Below, piece after piece: positions 33,005 to 40,126 of a stretch of DNA of 64,000 nucleotides. Within the stretch, counting starts at the first letter, position 1; every line of letters starts with the position of its first letter. The position numbers were made by a program, and so were the translations under genes. The notes under the pieces were generated by a model that saw nothing but the letters and a program-made list of their open reading frames with translations, was not told the DNA's origin and did no database searches. Source of the stretch: Candidatus Binatia bacterium. Lineage in GTDB: Bacteria > Desulfobacterota > Binatia > Bin18. The stretch spans positions 3,513,710 to 3,577,709 of the forward strand of contig OY761159.2 in the NCBI GenBank assembly GCA_963664395.2. The letters run 5' to 3'.

Positions 33005-33018
33005 AATCAGCCTTACAC

Positions 33019-33116
33019 ATCCCCTCCTTGGAGGGAAAGAGGAAACGTGTCCTCAACAGAGTAGGCAGATGTTGACACGTTTCCTCTTTGTGCCGCGTGA
33101 GCGGCGGGGTGGGTTT
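33019..33116. repeat. Family-A element (reverse orientation) split by a family-B hairpin (33037-33090)
   Basis: Reads tcccctccttggaggg | aaagaggaaacgtgtcctcaacagagtaggcagatgttgacacgtttcctcttt | gtgccgcgtgagcggcggggtgggtt. The same composite occurs at 38669-38766. Confidence 0.85.
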
Positions 33117-33140
33117 CTTCTGGGTTTCTTCTCTGGGGGG

Positions 33141-33212
33141 AAGCTAAGACAAAAGAGGCAGGGGGCAACCCACCCCGGCCCTTCGGGCCACCCCTCCAAG
33201 GAGGGGAGCAGA
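33141..33212 (+). repeat. Left copy of the direct repeat flanking the DUF559 gene
   Basis: Reads agctaagacaaaagaggcagggggcaacccaccccggcccttcgggccacccctccaaggaggggagcaga. Confidence 0.85.
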
Positions 33213-33216
33213 GATT

Positions 33217-33606
33217 ATGAAGCGGAAGATCGTGCCGTATAACCCGCGATTGAAGGAACTCGCTCGGCAACTTCGGAAGCAGATGACGCGGGCGGAGGCT
33301 CTGTTGTGGCAACAGCTCAAGGCACGGCAGATGGAGGGCTGTGACTTTGACCGACAGCGCCCTATCGATGAGTATATCGTGGACTTTTTTAGTAAGGACC
33401 TCATGCTGGCCATTGAGATTGATGGAGTAACACACGATACCGAAGCTGGACAGAAAAACGATCAGCGGAGGCAGAAACGCCTGGAAGCTCTGGGTGTCCG
33501 ATTTTTGCGCTTTCAGGATGAGGAGGTCAAGCAGAATCTGGAAGGAGTGTTGACGGTCATTCGGGGGTGGATCGGGAAGAATAAACCCACCCCTCCGAGG
33601 AGCTAA
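33217..33606 (+). CDS. DUF559 (Vsr-like) endonuclease-domain protein
   Basis: 129 aa with 'RAEALLWQQLKARQMEGCDFDRQRPIDEYIVDFFSKDLMLAIEIDGVTHD...RRQKRLEALGVRFLRF'. Confidence 0.85.
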   Translation: MKRKIVPYNPRLKELARQLRKQMTRAEALLWQQLKARQMEGCDFDRQRPIDEYIVDFFSKDLMLAIEIDGVTHDTEAGQKNDQRRQKRLEALGVRFLRFQDEEVKQNLEGVLTVIRGWIGKNKPTPPRS

Positions 33607-33663
33607 GACAAAGGGGCAACCCACCCCGGCCTACGGCCACCCCTCCAAGGAGGGGAGCAGAAC
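33600..33663 (+). repeat. Right copy of the direct repeat flanking the DUF559 gene (overlaps its stop codon)
   Basis: Reads agctaagacaaaggggcaacccaccccggcctacggccacccctccaaggaggggagcaga. Confidence 0.85.
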
Positions 33664-33712
33664 ACATCCCCTCTCGGTCAAGGCTCTCACTATCACCATA
33701 AGTGACATTTTT

Positions 33713-33932
33713 ATCCCCTCCTCGGAGGGGTGGCCCGCAGGGCCGGGGTGGGTTCCTGGCACGCCCTCACGAGGAAACCCACCCCGCCGCTACGCGGCAC
33801 CCCTCCTGGGAGGGGATGGTGAAGGGAGCGCTACGCGGCACCCCTCCTGGGAGGGGATGGTGAAGGGAGCGCTGCGCGGCACCCCCTTCGACTGGGCTCA
33901 GGACAGGCCCCCAAGAGGGGATGGTGAAGGGG
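33713..33932. repeat. Family-A cluster: one reverse copy, then three tandem 41-nt units, the third carrying a 23-nt family-C insertion
   Basis: The units start at 33789, 33830 and 33871. The repeated ggggATGgtgaaggg motif sits at 33816, 33857 and 33921, so the spacing is 41 and then 64 (41+23). Confidence 0.85.
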
Positions 33933-33983
33933 GATGCGGGTGACTGCTTGACAACCGAAACCGGGTTTGAACTAATACGCCAC

Positions 33984-34292
33984 ATGGCCGCCGCCGAAGA
34001 CACAAGCTGGGAATACACGTTAGGCCGCATTGATGAGCGGACCGAGAACCTGGAGAAGCGCGTTGATGAACGGTTCGAGAACCTGGAGAAGCGCATTGAT
34101 GAACGGTTCGAGAACCTGGAGAAGCGCATTGACGAGCGGTTCGAGCATGTGGAACAGCGTCTTGGACGTGTGGAGTTTGATGTGAAGGGTATTCAGAAGA
34201 CGATTGACGAGAAGATGCTCAACAAGACAACCTTCTTCACGTTTACCAGCGTTGGCGCCGGTCTCCTGGCCGCGATGATCGCGCTGAAGTAG
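33984..34292 (+). CDS. Tail-anchored coiled-coil protein with four 33-nt (11-aa) tandem repeats
   Basis: Contains 'IDERTENLEKRVDERFENLEKRIDERFENLEKRIDERFEHVEQRL' and a C-terminal TM segment 'TTFFTFTSVGAGLLAAMIAL'. The tracked ATG at 33921 lies inside a repeat unit, so the ATG at 33984 is preferred. The start is uncertain. Confidence 0.6.
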   Translation: MAAAEDTSWEYTLGRIDERTENLEKRVDERFENLEKRIDERFENLEKRIDERFEHVEQRLGRVEFDVKGIQKTIDEKMLNKTTFFTFTSVGAGLLAAMIALK

Positions 34293-34333
34293 CTGTTGTG
34301 AAACACTCCTGACTCAAGCCAACCCCTTTGCTA

Positions 34334-34363
34334 TTGACACCTTTTCCAAGAGTACACTATAGT
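34334..34363 (+). promoter_or_regulatory. Candidate sigma70 promoter
   Basis: TTGACA-N18-TATAGT lies about 30 nt upstream of the 34393 ORF. Confidence 0.45.
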
Positions 34364-34392
34364 AATTTCATAATGCGCAAGGCTTTACGGGA

Positions 34393-38270: not shown

Positions 38271-38534
38271 GTGAGCGTCAAGGGTTGGGAGGGAACTATC
38301 AACAATCTTACATTCTCGCCGGAAGCGGTTGCGGCTCTGCAAGCGCTGGTCGCCCCGAACTGGGTGGACATCGGGGGGCTTATCATCGGGCTGGCGCAAT
38401 GTGGCTTGATTTATTACGGCCTGAGACTAATGAACCTGGGGTCCGCGGAACGCACAGCGCAACTCACGGCCCAGCACGAAGAAGCCATGACGGCCCTCAA
38501 GGAACTCATCCACCGGACCACTTCTCGTCCATAA
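38271..38534 (+). CDS. Small membrane protein (hypothetical)
   Basis: Contains the TM segment 'IGGLIIGLAQCGLIYYGL' followed by a helical tail 'AERTAQLTAQHEEAMTALKELI'. The GTG at 38271 sits at the end of the shared leader. The start is uncertain. Confidence 0.45.
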   Translation: MSVKGWEGTINNLTFSPEAVAALQALVAPNWVDIGGLIIGLAQCGLIYYGLRLMNLGSAERTAQLTAQHEEAMTALKELIHRTTSRP

Positions 38535-38591
38535 ACGCCAGACACCCGCCGAATCCCCTGCGGTTATAGCCCTTCTTATCGACGATTGGGT

Positions 38592-38662
38592 GTAACATCA
38601 CCCAGAACACGACTCAGACAGCAGAAGACAAGGGTTTCGGCCCTTGCCTTCTTTTTTTGTCC
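38592..38662 (+). terminator. Family-E terminator module copy 3
   Basis: taacatcacccagaacacgactcagacagcagaagacaagggtttcggcccttgccttc followed by T7. Confidence 0.7.
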
Positions 38663-38668
38663 TGAACA

Positions 38669-38881
38669 ATCCCCTCTTGGGAGGGAAAGAGGAAACGTGT
38701 CCTTAATAGAGCAGGTAGATGTTGACACGTTTCCTCTTTGTGCCGCGTAGCGGCGGGGTGGGTTTCGTAGTCTCGCCGTGCTGCGCTGGCCGAACAGGAA
38801 CCCACCCCGGCCTTCGGCCACCCCTCCAAGGAGGGGAGCTGGAGGGTCTTGGCTTTGCGTTTTGCCGGGCGAGTTGGTAGG
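38669..38881. repeat. Composite repeat module: A reverse split by a B hairpin (38687-38740), spacer, A forward, and the shared leader
   Basis: Same architecture as 38035-38270 and 33019-33116. Confidence 0.85.
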
Positions 38882-38892
38882 CTGGGTGCCCT

Positions 38893-39400
38893 ATGGCGAG
38901 CGCAACATTTGATACCTTACACGCGGCCAAGGCGCTGACGGCGGCGGGCTTTGAGGCACAGCAAGCCGAGGCAATCACGGACACGATCCGAGAGGCGTTT
39001 ACCGAGAGTGTAGCCACCAAGGCCGATATCGCCGGCCTGGAAGCAGCCGTAACCGCAGATATCGCCGAGGTCAAGGCGGAGTTGAAGGCCGATATCGCCG
39101 GCCTGGAAGCAGCCGTAACCGCAGATATCGCCGAGGAAGGCGGAGTTGAAGGCCGATATTGCTGAGGTAAGGACGGAAATCGCCGAGGTGAAGGCCGAGT
39201 TGAAGGCAGATATCGCCGAGGTGAAGGCGGAGTTGAAGGCCGATATTGCCGAGGTAAGGACGGAAATCGCCGAGGTGAAGACGGAAATCGCCGAGTTGAA
39301 GGCCGAATTGAAAGCCGACATCGCGGGCATATACAAGCAGCTCTGGCTGGTAGCGCTGGGCATCGTGACGGCAGTCGCGGCGATTGTGAAACTGTTGTAA
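38893..39400 (+). pseudogene. DUF1640-like tail-anchored coiled-coil protein, copy 1, with a frameshift at about 39136
   Basis: Starts 'MASATFDTLHAAKALTAAGFEAQQAEAITDTIREAF'. It has a 66-nt tandem duplication (39022-39087 and 39088-39151), and the second copy lacks 2 nt (gaggtcaagg versus gagg--aagg). The C-terminal part '...IYKQLWLVALGIVTAVAAIVKLL' lies in the next frame. Confidence 0.65.
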
Positions 39401-39410
39401 GGGACAGGCT

Positions 39411-39679
39411 ATGGCGAGCGCAACGTTTGATACCTTACACGCGGCCAAGGCGCTGACCGCGGCGGGCTTTGAGTCCCAACAAGCCGAGGCGATCACGACA
39501 CGATCCGGGACGCCTTCACCGAGAGTGTCGCCACCAAGGCCGACATCGCCGAGGTGAAGACGGAAATCGCCGAGTTGAAGGCCGAGTTGAAAGCCGACAT
39601 CGCGGGCATATACAAGCAGCTCTGGCTGGTAGCGCTGGGCATCGTGACGGCCGTCGCGGCGATTGTGAAACTGTTGTAA
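39411..39679 (+). pseudogene. DUF1640-like protein, copy 2, with a 1-nt deletion at about 39497
   Basis: It has the same N-terminus as copies 1 and 3. The sequence atcacgacacgatcc here corresponds to atcacggacacgatcc in copy 1. The 3' 130 nt are nearly identical to copy 1. Length is 269 nt. Confidence 0.65.
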
Positions 39680-39693
39680 GCAGGACAGGTTCT

Positions 39694-39996
39694 ATGGCAA
39701 CGGCGACGTTTGATACCTTACACGCGGCCAAGGCGCTGACCGCGGCGGGCTTTGAGGCCCAACAAGCCGAGGCGATCACCGATACGATCCGGGACGCCTT
39801 CACCGAGAGCGTGGCCACCAAGGCCGACATCGCCGAGTTGAGGGCGGATATAGCGAGCCTGGAAACGCGGCTGGTCGAACGGATAGACGCGGTGGAAACG
39901 CGGGTGGCAGAGCGTTTTGAGGCGCTCTACAAGCAGCTCTGGCTGATGGCGCTGGGCATCGTGACGGCAGTCGCGGCGATTGTGAAACTGTTGTAG
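39694..39996 (+). CDS. DUF1640-like tail-anchored coiled-coil protein, copy 3 (intact)
   Basis: 100 aa: 'MATATFDTLHAAKALTAAGFEAQQAEAITDTIRDAFTESVATKADIAELRADIASLETRL...LYKQLWLMALGIVTAVAAIVKLL'. Confidence 0.8.
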   Translation: MATATFDTLHAAKALTAAGFEAQQAEAITDTIRDAFTESVATKADIAELRADIASLETRLVERIDAVETRVAERFEALYKQLWLMALGIVTAVAAIVKLL

Positions 39997-40040
39997 ATGT
40001 CCGGGAACCCCTCAGTCCTCCTTGCTCAGGGGGAATTCAA

Positions 40041-40080
40041 GGATATCAAAGGATATCAAAGGATATCATCGGATATCATC
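40041..40080. repeat. Four phased 10-bp units each containing GGATATC, upstream of wzt
   Basis: Reads ggatatcaaa ggatatcaaa ggatatcatc ggatatcatc. It ends 47 nt before the wzt ATG. Confidence 0.95.
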
Positions 40081-40126
40081 CGTGTGTTCCAACTGAGACC
40101 ACGCAGAAACTATTGCCAACAGAACC

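What the first reader, a model, noticed from the sequence alone, without database searches (positions are those of the whole stretch)
33005..40126. Cassette-like accessory island between the secretin gene and the glycan-export locus
Between the gspD stop (33004) and the wzt start (40127), gene size collapses.

**Small units in the island**
- a DUF559 nuclease
- a coiled-coil gene at 33984
- an exported protein at 34393
- a decayed secreted protein at 35101
- a decayed RelE pair
- a minus-strand coiled-coil gene at 37714
- a small membrane protein at 38271
- three tandem DUF1640-like genes

**Reused non-coding modules around them**
- Composite GC-rich repeat blocks on the 5' side (33019-33212, 33713-33932, 36821-36965, 38035-38270, 38669-38881).
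- An identical 43-nt leader in front of two different genes (38228-38270 and 38839-38881).
- Three copies of one ~70-nt terminator module on the 3' side (36626, 37541, 38592).

I know of no described system with this 'repeat block - small tail-anchored ORF - shared terminator' architecture. The bacterial role of DUF1640-type proteins is unknown.
Basis: partly seen in the sequence, partly recalled or inferred. Interest (0 to 1): 0.7.

Follow-up and report, generated by a model that had tools for sequence, protein, structure and literature searches.

The report
Repeat-rich variable zone beside secretin gene
The stretch between the secretin gene and the glycan exporter is a strain-variable zone where small palindromic repeats, decaying toxin-antitoxin cassettes and a Vsr-like nuclease gene have piled up around a few conserved envelope genes; the arrangement is of a known kind, but the repeats seem tied to the nuclease gene family across bacterial phyla, and no paper I found reports that.

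Summary
All listed small genes and all reused non-coding modules are at the stated coordinates and are far beyond chance. The "identical" 43-nt leader is 41/43.

Ten sister strains (97-99% identical flanks) show the right half is a cassette-like array. Type II toxin-antitoxin pairs (ParE, YafQ, HicAB) and small membrane proteins are gained, lost, duplicated and reordered between ~215-290-nt composite repeats.

It is not one new system:
- The repeats are REP/BIME-like palindromes ("arms") mixed with hicA gene relics, a conserved promoter-like core and a copied intrinsic terminator.
- There is no integrase, no transposase and no attC-like site.
- The DUF1640-like genes are not accessory. Arrays of them sit directly upstream of wzt/wzm in four lineages, including ones without the repeats.

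Two by-products are more interesting than the island:
- The arm (ACCCACCCC, hairpin, CCCCTCC-N-GGAGGGGA) flanks DUF559 genes in Binatia, Cyanobacteria, Bacteroidota and others, and is often translated into their C-termini.
- The DUF1640-like proteins keep a fixed head and anchor, while stalk length varies in one-helical-turn steps.

Novelty: new variant of a known kind. Interest: about 0.58.

The parts
30761..33004 (+). gspD-type secretin, left boundary
   Evidence: ORF. Pfam Secretin and Secretin_N on orthologues.
33019..33098 (+). Module A: the terminal hairpin of an inverted arm, carrying a nested 54-nt palindromic insert (33036-33089)
   Evidence: (D9). One search shows the insert in the window, L019 and L027 and its precise absence in L020, L022, L024 and L025, with no target duplication.
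33099..33212 (+). GGGGTGGGTT box, spacer and a complete arm (33165-33208) ending 9 nt before the DUF559 start codon
33217..33606 (+). DUF559 / Vsr-like PD-(D/E)XK nuclease gene. Its last codons (KPTPP) are encoded by an arm box.
   Evidence: 106.9 bits. (closest solved structure 3HRL, E 2e-13). (conserved D56, E67, D69, H73). (the identical protein lies after gspD on all 10 contigs displayed, of 17 found).
33596..33661 (+). Direct-repeat copy of the upstream arm region (arm 33616-33657), so DUF559 is bracketed by ~65-nt direct repeats
   Evidence: (D10, D5).
33713..33932 (.). Arm cluster: inverted arm 33713-33756 (41-nt inverted repeat with 33167-33207), arm 33774-33817, 41-nt tandem copy 33788-33869, and sub-module CTTCGACTGGGCTCAGGACAGG at 33886-33907
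   Evidence: (I1, I3, D11, I16).
33984..34292 (+). Tail-anchored coiled-coil gene with 11-residue repeats. Copy number varies between strains (100 vs 122 aa), the gene is partly deleted in some strains, and a relic remains in L043.
   Evidence: (D6).
34334..34363 (+). Promoter-like site (TTGACA, 18 nt, TATAGT) for the exported-protein gene, also conserved in L043
34393..34869 (+). Exported 151/158-aa protein, conserved partner of the secreted protein
   Evidence: No Pfam hit.
35101..36629 (+). Pseudogene of a hypervariable secreted protein that is 466-524 aa where intact
36615..36684 (+). Terminator module T1 (16-bp stem plus T-run)
   Evidence: (D7).
36723..36972 (+). 32-aa ORF, a hicA 3' relic with a C12 tract (36823-36898), and an arm-type block with GGGGTGGGTT box
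   Evidence: D13, D14; 97% identity to the L026 hicA 3' end.
37073..37467 (+). Inactivated antitoxin/ParE-RelE pair with a 102-nt internal deletion at about 37276
37544..37613 (+). Terminator module T2
   Evidence: (D7).
37714..37953 (-). 79-aa tail-anchored coiled-coil protein that contains an IATKAE motif. Its own terminator is at 37693-37672.
   Evidence: Motif as defined in PMC4786415.
38018..38087 (+). Module B: an internally deleted hicA gene (start region plus last ~29 nt and downstream sequence)
38082..38273 (+). Module C (inverted-arm remnant, spacer, arm) followed by module D (promoter-like core TTGTGT, 17 nt, TGG-TAGGGT)
   Evidence: (D5, D8).
38271..38534 (+). Small membrane protein. 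In this strain the ATG used by relatives is ATC at 38298.
38593..38662 (+). Terminator module T3
   Evidence: (D7).
38669..38884 (+). Composite A-C-D block. A-C folds into one closed multi-hairpin element. D ends in GAGTTGGTAG, with TAGGCT 9 nt before the ATG.
   Evidence: z -4.4 as DNA; z -6.9 as RNA.
38893..39996 (+). Three tandem DUF1640-like tail-anchored coiled-coil genes: 38893-39400 (frameshift near 39136), 39411-39679 (frameshift near 39497) and 39694-39996 (intact). They form the 5' part of the wzt operon in relatives.
   Evidence: (D1-D4).
40040..40101 (+). 10-nt tandem repeats (GGATATCA-type) and a weak hicA-like 3' relic (DIIRVFQL) just before wzt
   Evidence: weak: 17-nt and 14-aa matches.
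40127..41329 (+). wzt (ABC ATPase with Wzt_C domain), right boundary
24647..24762 (.). 'Empty' REPIN-like doublet of two inverted arms with a 28-nt spacer, outside the island
53991..54032 (-). Solo arm in an intergenic region outside the island

Best explanation
The gspD-wzt interval of this Binatia-like chromosome is a REP/BIME-type plasticity zone laid over an older envelope locus.

**Ancestral genes**
- a tail-anchored coiled-coil gene
- an exported protein paired with a hypervariable secreted protein
- a small membrane protein
- a tandem array of DUF1640-like tail-anchored coiled-coil genes that head the wzt operon

**Later additions**
- a DUF559 (Vsr-like) nuclease gene bracketed by 41-44-nt palindromic 'arms'
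- further copies and nested derivatives of those arms
- type II toxin-antitoxin cassettes, now partly decayed: the ParE pair carries a deletion and there are two clear hicA relics, plus a weak third candidate

**How the reused modules arose (inferred)**
- Small hairpin elements insert into one another.
- The resulting ~215-290-nt direct repeats then support unequal homologous recombination.
- That recombination deletes, duplicates and reorders whatever lies between them, and carries along a promoter-like core (D) and an intrinsic terminator (T).

**Result**
The outcome is a row of independent small transcription units. Each runs terminator, structured repeat cluster, extended -10 promoter, then a short-leader or leaderless gene.

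**Status of the steps**
- Shown: the anatomy, the strain polymorphism, the origin of the modules and the conservation.
- Inferred: the recombination mechanism, promoter activity, and any role of DUF559 in spreading the arms.
For: **Same species, different content**
- Ten sister loci have 97-99% identical flanks but five different cassette layouts.
- Cassette order is reversed between L019 and L023. In L026 the same cassette sits on both sides of HicBA.

**Module boundaries and origins**
- All 22 D copies from the window and sister strains, plus the homologous site in L001, share sequence up to GAGTTGGTAG and diverge right after it.
- Module B is 96-97% identical to the 3' end of an intact hicA gene.
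- Cassette genes are ParE (46 bits), YafQ (108 bits) and HicA (29 bits).

**Repeat dynamics**
- A 54-nt hairpin is precisely present or absent inside an arm, with no target duplication. L027 carries a 142-nt tandem duplication.
- Arms occur as a doublet and a solo copy elsewhere in the window, and at strain-specific intergenic sites.
- The middle hairpin of the arm shows compensatory changes at 2 pairs (14 cells; 0 of 500 shuffles reach this).
- The A-C block folds far better than shuffles.

**No dedicated recombinase**
- No integrase, transposase or RAYT is seen in the genes annotated across 64 kb.
- No attC-like site pairs were found.

**Conserved parts**
- The D core (TGnTAGGCT, 7-9 nt before the ATG) lies upstream of the first DUF1640 gene or the small membrane gene in L001, L030, L043 and L044.
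- DUF1640 arrays directly precede wzt or wzm in four lineages.
Against: - The whole genome could not be searched, so genome-wide spread of the arms is extrapolated. The basis is 64 kb plus about 20 kb from each of ten strains.
- Modules A, B, D and T were never seen outside the island in any flank. They may therefore be locus-specific rather than dispersed.
- Homologous recombination was not distinguished from a site-specific or transposase-driven process. The precise 54-nt insertion without duplication looks more like an enzyme-driven or hairpin-slippage event than like recombination.
- There are no expression data for D or T. The -35 element is weak (3 of 6 matches), and the -10 element of two cassettes lacks the final T.
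- The two frameshifts in the DUF1640 copies could be assembly errors.
Confidence: 0.62

Rival explanations
1. An integron-like cassette array (a cluster of attC sites without an integrase). The repeat blocks would be recombination sites used by a tyrosine recombinase encoded elsewhere. The toxin-antitoxin pairs and small genes would be mobile cassettes.
For: - Co-oriented small cassettes, toxin-antitoxin content, strain-to-strain gain, loss and reordering, and a sharp shared boundary (GAGTTGGTAG) before each cassette.
- The repeat elements are structured palindromes.
Against: - No integrase in the 64-kb window or in the ±10-kb flanks of ten loci.
- No RYYYAAC...GTTRRRY pairs in the island (0 found, 0.8 expected by chance).
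- The inter-cassette elements are 215-290 nt and composite, longer than the attC size as I recall it (roughly 57-141 nt, from memory).
- Cassettes carry their own promoters.
- Arms also occur singly elsewhere in the window.
- The duplicated layout in L026 is what unequal crossing-over would produce.
Confidence: 0.05
2. The composite blocks are active miniature mobile elements (REPIN or MITE-like), inserted one by one by a trans-acting enzyme. That enzyme could be the neighbouring DUF559 nuclease or a RAYT elsewhere. The elements bring a terminator and an outward promoter with them. Recombination would be secondary.
For: - Precise 54-nt hairpin insertion polymorphism without target duplication.
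- An arm doublet and a solo arm at unrelated sites, and strain-specific arms.
- DUF559 genes are flanked by the same arm in seven of seven loci from several phyla.
- The Azospirillum counterpart has 35 copies in one replicon.
Against: - Only the arms are seen outside the island. A, B, D and T are not.
- B is a gene relic, not an element.
- DUF559 is a nuclease fold with no known strand-transfer activity.
- No transposase is nearby.
- Cassette reshuffling needs no transposition.
Confidence: 0.25
3. The small tail-anchored and membrane proteins form one co-regulated envelope module. The shared promoter and terminator modules would exist because the genes must be expressed alike, for example as scaffolds for the adjacent secretin or glycan-export machines.
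For: - Three families of coiled-coil, C-terminal TM proteins plus two small membrane proteins lie in one interval.
- The D core is conserved in front of the small membrane gene and the DUF1640 genes across lineages.
- DUF1640 arrays are syntenic with wzt/wzm.
Against: - The same D module also drives toxin-antitoxin cassettes (DinJ-YafQ, HicBA).
- In the window, several of these genes are broken or altered. Two DUF1640 copies are frameshifted and the small membrane gene's start codon is changed.
- L043 keeps the DUF1640 array with none of the other small genes.
- Wider DUF1640 relatives are single genes on plasmids with unrelated neighbours.
Confidence: 0.15

Closest known systems
REP / BIME elements and REPIN-RAYT systems (Bertels & Rainey 2011, PMC3116915; Nunvar 2013, PMC3686654)
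   Same: - Short GC-rich imperfect palindromes lying outside genes.
- They occur singly, as inverted doublets with a short spacer, and in mosaic clusters with other motifs.
- They are polymorphic between strains.
- A single-copy nuclease-type gene is itself flanked by the repeat it may be linked to.
   Different: - No RAYT (Y1 transposase) was seen.
- The arms lack the GTAG/CTAC head that I recall for RAYT-type REPs (recalled from memory).
- The flanked gene is a DUF559 PD-(D/E)XK nuclease.
- The arm boxes are conserved across phyla, whereas REPs are, as I recall, usually lineage-specific (from memory).
Chromosomal integron cassette arrays / CALINs
   Same: - A co-oriented row of small genes rich in toxin-antitoxin pairs.
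- Structured palindromic elements lie between the genes.
- Cassette content and order differ between strains.
   Different: - No intI gene and no attC consensus.
- The inter-cassette elements are two to four times longer and composite.
- The cassettes have their own promoters and terminators.
Neisseria Correia elements, intergenic mosaic elements and 'minimal mobile elements' (from memory, not checked here)
   Same: - Intergenic repeat mosaics that carry promoter or terminator activity.
- They lie between conserved genes where different small cassettes are found in different strains, exchanged by homologous recombination.
   Different: - Unrelated sequences and hosts.
- Here the repeats are tied to a DUF559 gene.
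- No evidence here for transformation-driven exchange.
Coiled-coil molecular rulers of ABC-transporter-dependent O-antigen synthesis (WbdD, WbbB; from memory, not checked here)
   Same: - Membrane-attached coiled coils encoded in a wzm/wzt locus.
- Stalk length varies while the two ends are fixed.
   Different: - The DUF1640-like proteins are about 40-170 aa with no enzyme domain.
- They are true tail-anchored proteins and come in tandem sets of different lengths.
- No link to chain length has been shown.
DUF1640 / CCDC90-MCUR1 family with beta-layer coiled coils (Hartmann et al. 2016, PMC4786415)
   Same: - An N-terminal head.
- An [aliphatic]-A-T-K-x-[D/E] motif at the start of the stalk.
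- A coiled-coil stalk and a C-terminal transmembrane helix.
   Different: - Much shorter than the mitochondrial members.
- Arranged in tandem arrays next to wzt.
- Pfam scores sit at the gathering threshold.

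Membership tests
REP / BIME / REPIN | Short (about 20-45 nt) GC-rich imperfect palindrome | tested here: met
   The 41-44-nt arm has two hairpins. 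The middle one has compensatory changes at 2 pairs. The outer one does not vary.
REP / BIME / REPIN | Extragenic, multi-copy and dispersed over the genome | tested here: inconclusive
   There are 9 complete arms in 64 kb, 3 of them outside the island. Other strains have extra strain-specific sites.
REP / BIME / REPIN | Inverted doublets with a short spacer (REPIN) | tested here: met
   Window 24647-24762: two inverted arms with a 28-nt spacer.
REP / BIME / REPIN | Mosaic combination with other conserved motifs (BIME) | tested here: met
   Sub-modules A, B, C, D and the CCTGTCCTGAGCC motif are combined differently at each site.
REP / BIME / REPIN | Cognate RAYT gene flanked by the repeats | tested here: inconclusive
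   No Y1 transposase in the window or the locus flanks. The rest of the genome was not searchable. The gene flanked by arms is DUF559 instead.
Integron cassette array / CALIN | IntI integrase next to the array | tested here: not met
   No recombinase among the genes annotated across the 64-kb window.
Integron cassette array / CALIN | attC sites with R''(RYYYAAC)...R'(GTTRRRY), about 57-141 nt (size and consensus recalled from memory) | tested here: not met
   A consensus scan found 0 candidates in the island, with 0.8 expected by chance. IntegronFinder's covariance model was not available.
MITE | Terminal inverted repeats plus target-site duplication | tested here: not met
   The elements are palindromic, but the one clean insertion (54 nt) has no duplication.
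Type II toxin-antitoxin (ParE/RelE) | Toxin domain above the Pfam threshold, with an overlapping upstream antitoxin gene | tested here: met
   The window fragment scores 37 bits against a cut-off of 23. Intact 77-aa and 90-aa genes overlap by 4 nt in sister strains. The window copy is broken by a 102-nt deletion.
DUF559 / Vsr-like PD-(D/E)XK nuclease | PF04480 domain with conserved acidic catalytic residues | tested here: met
   106.9 bits against a cut-off of 20.6. D56, E67, D69 and H73 are invariant in 19 homologues. The solved relative is 3HRL. Activity cannot be tested here.
DUF1640 / CCDC90-like (PF07798) | Pfam score at or above the gathering cut-off of 33.5 bits | tested here: inconclusive
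   Copy 1 fragment scores 33.8 bits and the intact copy 3 scores 33.1 bits. Precomputed PF07798 hits are present on nearly all of the listed homologues.
DUF1640 / CCDC90-like (PF07798) | Beta-layer motif [aliphatic]-A-T-K-x-[D/E] at the stalk start and a C-terminal transmembrane helix | tested here: met
   VATKADI is at residues 41-47 and the protein ends in LWLMALGIVTAVAAIVKLL. The motif definition is from PMC4786415. The TM helix was judged by inspection only.

The most novel reading that the evidence does not exclude
The GC-rich 'arm' is the cognate repeat of the DUF559 nuclease family. That would make it a second, non-RAYT kind of REP/REPIN system, in which a single-copy Vsr-like PD-(D/E)XK nuclease gene sits between copies of a structured palindrome. 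The palindrome reads ACCCACCCC, covarying hairpin, CCCCTCC-N2-4-GGAGGGGA. The nuclease would recognise, maintain or spread it. The pairing is conserved across Binatia, Cyanobacteria, Bacteroidota and, with variant boxes, Alphaproteobacteria. On this reading, the island is the home nest of that system in this genome.
Probability: 0.3. Interest if true: 0.8.

Novelty: new variant of a known kind. Interest (0 to 1): 0.58.

Why it matters
The island itself is a well-resolved natural example of how palindromic repeats, gene relics and copied promoter and terminator pieces build a strain-variable array of small genes with no dedicated recombinase. That is useful as a case study, but it is not a new principle.

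Two by-products could matter more.

1. **DUF559 and its palindrome.** DUF559 is a very large family of unknown role, with about 20,000 cluster representatives at E ≤ 0.001. A conserved structured palindrome at both ends of its genes, across phyla and also dispersed in genomes, gives a concrete and testable idea of its DNA target. It would also suggest where one class of bacterial repeats comes from.
2. **DUF1640-like proteins.** The tandem tail-anchored proteins at the head of wzm/wzt loci have fixed ends and stalks that vary by single helical turns. This offers a first functional lead for bacterial DUF1640 proteins: spacers or rulers for glycan assembly.

Tried and rejected
- **Rfam.** A permissive scan of the island gave only four sub-threshold chance hits and nothing on the arms.
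- **Defence systems.** PADLOC gave only coiled-coil noise and a weak restriction-enzyme-like hit for DUF559.
- **Integron idea.** Rejected: no integrase and no attC-like pairs.
- **Sigma-54 reading of module D.** Considered by eye and rejected. The GG-to-GC spacing is one base too long.
- **D core in metagenomes.** One scan found only two overlapping contigs, both the same syntenic locus. D therefore looks locus-specific rather than dispersed.
- **Plasmid collection.**
  - It holds no close (≥60% identity) DUF559 relative.
  - It holds essentially no arms of this type.
  - DUF1640 relatives there are single genes with unrelated neighbours. The wzt link is therefore clade-specific.
- **Failed look-up.** The 472-aa protein at 52156-53574 is not on record, so the solo arm at 54 kb could not be compared between strains.
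- **Literature.** Searches for DUF559 with repeats, Vsr with REP, and REPIN/RAYT with Vsr found nothing relevant.
- **DUF559 as a multi-copy mobile gene in this species.** Not supported. The exact protein lies next to gspD on all 10 contigs displayed, of 17 found, all of which carry it.

Full report
**1. The observation**

The interval 33005-40126 lies between a secretin gene (30761-33004) and wzt (40127-41329).

- DUF559 at 33217-33606 (PF04480, 106.9 bits).
- A coiled-coil gene ending in a hydrophobic helix at 33984-34292.
- An exported protein at 34393-34869.
- A heavily decayed gene from 35101 to about 36629.
- A broken ParE/RelE pair at 37073-37467.
- A minus-strand coiled-coil/TM gene at 37714-37953.
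- A small membrane protein at 38271-38534.
- Three DUF1640-like genes at 38893-39996. Two are frameshifted. Pfam PF07798 scores are 33.8 and 33.1 bits against a cut-off of 33.5.

The reused non-coding pieces are real. The hairpin motif has 20 matches against 0.04 expected. The terminator core has 3 matches against 0 expected. The "identical" 43-nt leader is 41/43 identical, inside an 83-nt block at 95%. The three terminator modules are 74-84% identical to the reference copy.

**2. Where the window comes from, and the comparison set**

The secretin has an 80% identical relative in a "Candidatus Binatia" genome (L001). The exact DUF559 protein occurs on 17 contigs of two long-read metagenomes. 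On all ten contigs displayed it lies directly after gspD.

Ten 12-20-kb loci (L018-L027) have flanks 97-99% identical to the window, so they are sister strains. More distant relatives were also recovered:

| Locus | Relationship to the window |
|---|---|
| L030/L031 | Wzt 55% identical |
| L032 | DUF559 81% identical |
| L043 | GspD 72%, Wzt 73% identical |
| L044 | Wzm 52% identical |

The genes annotated upstream of the island are housekeeping genes (IF2, PNPase, PolA, purine synthesis). Those annotated downstream are glycosyltransferases, a methyltransferase, a sulfatase-family protein and a Wzy-like protein, plus two ORFs with no Pfam hit. No integrase, transposase or RAYT is present.

**3. 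Anatomy across strains**

The left part is constant. It runs:

1. gspD
2. arm block
3. DUF559
4. arm cluster
5. coiled-coil gene
6. exported protein
7. secreted protein of 466-524 aa
8. terminator T
9. 32-aa ORF
10. module B
11. antitoxin and ParE
12. terminator T
13. minus-strand coiled-coil gene

The secreted protein is highly divergent between strains. Its gene is broken in the window, L018, L021 and L027.

The right part varies. Every unit sits behind a composite block made of A and/or B, then C, then D. The block is always on the + strand, and all D copies end in GAGTTGGTAG. What follows is unit-specific:

- the small membrane gene
- an 82-aa membrane protein with its own promoter
- a DinJ-like antitoxin with YafQ (108 bits)
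- a HicB-like protein with HicA (29 bits)
- the DUF1640 array

There are five layouts among eleven genomes. L019 has 82-aa, small membrane, YafQ, HicBA. L023 has YafQ, small membrane, HicBA. L026 has the YafQ-antitoxin unit on both sides of HicBA. Unequal crossing-over between direct repeats produces exactly such duplications. Later deletions would give the apparent reordering.

**4. What the modules are**

- **Arm.** A 41-44-nt element: RACCCACCCC, a short middle hairpin, CACCCCTCC-N2-4-GGAGGGGA. The middle hairpin changes by compensatory substitutions at two pairs.
- **Module C.** The remnant of an inverted arm, a spacer, and an arm.
- **Module A.** The end of an inverted arm with a 54-nt perfect hairpin nested in it. 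That hairpin is precisely present in the window, L019 and L027 and precisely absent in L020, L022, L024 and L025. It has no target duplication.
- **Module B.** Not a repeat element. It is 96-97% identical to the last ~29 nt of an intact hicA gene plus its downstream sequence. Window 38018-38032 matches the hicA start region. The window therefore carries hicA relics at 36823-36898 and 38018-38087, and possibly a weak one near 40060-40101.
- **Module D.** Two conserved blocks separated by a variable spacer. I read it as a -35-like TTGCGT, 17 nt, and an extended -10 (TGG-TAGGCT/TAGGGT), 7-9 nt before the DUF1640 start codon. This implies a leaderless or near-leaderless mRNA. The core is kept in L001, L030, L043 and L044, although the rest of the block is not. 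Promoter activity is an inference.
- **Module T.** A strong intrinsic terminator (16-bp stem and a T-run) with about 15 conserved upstream bases. It is found after four unrelated genes.

The A-C block folds into one closed multi-hairpin structure (z -4.4 as DNA and -6.9 as RNA together with T).

**5. What is ancestral and what is added**

L043 has the order gspD, exported protein, secreted protein, five DUF1640 genes, wzt. It has none of the arms, no A-D modules, no DUF559 and no toxin-antitoxin genes. It does keep a relic of the coiled-coil gene and the same promoter for the exported-protein gene. L001 has a 3.6-kb version with two arms.

So the exported/secreted pair, the coiled-coil gene, the small membrane protein and the DUF1640 array are old residents. 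DUF559, the arm clusters and the toxin-antitoxin cassettes are additions in the window's lineage. No relative has gspD directly next to wzt.

**6. Mechanism**

I commit to the following. Hairpin elements of the arm family insert and nest. That step is inferred from a single precise polymorphism. The ~215-290-nt direct repeats that result then drive unequal homologous recombination, which shuffles whatever lies between them. The toxin-antitoxin pairs are selfish passengers that decay in place. The repeats, the copied promoter core and the copied terminator leave each small gene as its own transcription unit.

Confidence is about 0.6. An integron-like process is unlikely: there is no integrase, no attC-type pairs, the elements are too long, and the cassettes carry promoters. 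Active transposition of whole composite blocks is possible but unsupported, because A, B, D and T are never seen outside the interval.

**7. By-product one: arms and DUF559**

The arm flanks DUF559 genes well beyond this species.

- The same boxes lie within 250 nt of the gene in seven of seven loci. These come from Binatia, an unknown contig (L033), two cyanobacteria (L034, L041), an AT-rich Bacteroidales genome (L039) and a JGI genome (L040). Four unrelated control loci totalling 66 kb have none.
- In L032 the gene is again next to gspD but inverted.
- Many homologues end in arm-encoded peptide. 36 of 113 close relatives end in PTP..PS.EG.
- 32 of 61 diverse representatives carry arm-encoded peptide in a flank. 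None carry it in the core, and none of 135 control proteins do.
- More distant DUF559 genes on plasmids are flanked by analogous C-run/G-run hairpins with a CTAGGGGGC-type box.
- In Azospirillum the ~100-nt element just upstream of the gene has 35 copies in one 1.9-Mb replicon and 405 places in 44 replicons.

This is the same logic that linked RAYT genes to REP sequences. I found no paper making the link for DUF559.

In this species DUF559 was found only at this locus on every contig shown, while arms are multi-copy. Whether the nuclease spreads the arms, targets them, or is merely regulated by them is open. The GGAGGGG half looks like a ribosome-binding site paired to CCCCTCC.

**8. By-product two: the DUF1640-like array**

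Homologues keep the head (the ATK motif at residue 39 or 41) and the anchor (21 or 23 residues from YKQLW to the end). The stalk runs from 20 to 93 residues, in the series 20, 27, 31, 34, 38 and so on, nearly all in steps of 3-4 residues. That is about one helical turn per step. In the window's species, proteins range from 41 to 169 aa.

Arrays of two to five genes of different lengths sit directly before wzt or wzm in four lineages. In L043 they have 12-nt spacers, and a stop codon touches the wzt start. Coiled-coil rulers are known in this pathway (WbdD and WbbB, recalled from memory). A stand-alone ruler or scaffold is therefore a reasonable but untested idea. Wider DUF1640 relatives on plasmids have no such neighbours.

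**9. Verdict**

The island is a new variant of a known kind: a REP/BIME-type plasticity zone with toxin-antitoxin cassettes. The DUF559-palindrome link and the DUF1640-wzt link give it above-average interest.

Noticed in passing
window 33165-33208, 33616-33657, 33713-33756; L032, L033, L034, L039, L040, L041: The arm flanks DUF559 genes in several phyla, and many homologues translate it into their C-terminal tail (PTP..PS.EG). No paper in the searchable library mentions this.
   Followed up: partly
window 38893-39996; L001 14947-15806; L043 5023-6771; L044 5321-6444: Tandem DUF1640-like genes directly precede wzt or wzm in four lineages. Head and anchor are fixed, while stalk length varies from 20 to 93 residues, nearly all in steps of one helical turn.
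   Followed up: partly
window 34393-36629; L019 11133-13361; L021 17345-19523 (minus strand); L043 3022-4860: An exported ~150-aa protein and a secreted 370-524-aa protein form a conserved pair next to the secretin gene. The larger one is far more divergent between strains than its flanks, is broken in 4 of 11 strains, and L021 carries a second, inverted pair. Neither has a Pfam family.
   Followed up: no
window 33036-33089: A 54-nt perfect hairpin is precisely present or absent between strains inside an arm, with no target duplication. L027 has a 142-nt tandem duplication of the neighbouring arm doublet.
   Followed up: yes
window 38296-38300: The ATG that starts the small membrane protein in L019, L023 and L030 is ATC in the window and in the L020, L022 and L026 copies aligned; L018, L021 and L025 carry the same 87-aa gene call. 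Gene callers fall back on an upstream GTG or TTG, so the gene may be silenced or started differently.
   Followed up: no
window 34026-34157; L025 5048-5350 vs L019 10643-11011: The coiled-coil gene after DUF559 varies by two 11-residue repeats (100 vs 122 aa). It has lost its 3' half in some strains, and a 20-codon relic survives in L043.
   Followed up: no
L032 4001-4405: In another Binatia genome the DUF559 gene is again beside the 3' end of gspD but on the opposite strand. About ten arms surround it. This fits inversion or re-insertion between inverted arms.
   Followed up: no
L037 500-600 (Azospirillum sp. TSH58 replicon CP022367): The ~100-nt palindromic element just upstream of a distant DUF559 gene is a genus-restricted dispersed repeat. 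It has 35 copies in this replicon and 405 places in 44 Azospirillum replicons.
   Followed up: partly
window 37714-37953 (minus strand): The 79-aa tail-anchored protein contains IATKAE. This matches the beta-layer motif described for the DUF1640/DUF3782 coiled coils, so it may be a distant relative of the DUF1640 genes.
   Followed up: no
window 36824-36836 and 40040-40080: A run of 12-13 C lies inside a hicA relic. About four tandem 10-nt units (GGATATCA-type) lie just upstream of wzt. Both are slippage-prone tracts of unknown consequence.
   Followed up: no
L018 18209-19784; L023 18412-20297; L043 8076-10015: Some strains and relatives carry a carbamoyltransferase gene between wzt and wzm that the window lacks. 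An arm lies at the junction, so the glycan locus itself also varies between strains.
   Followed up: no
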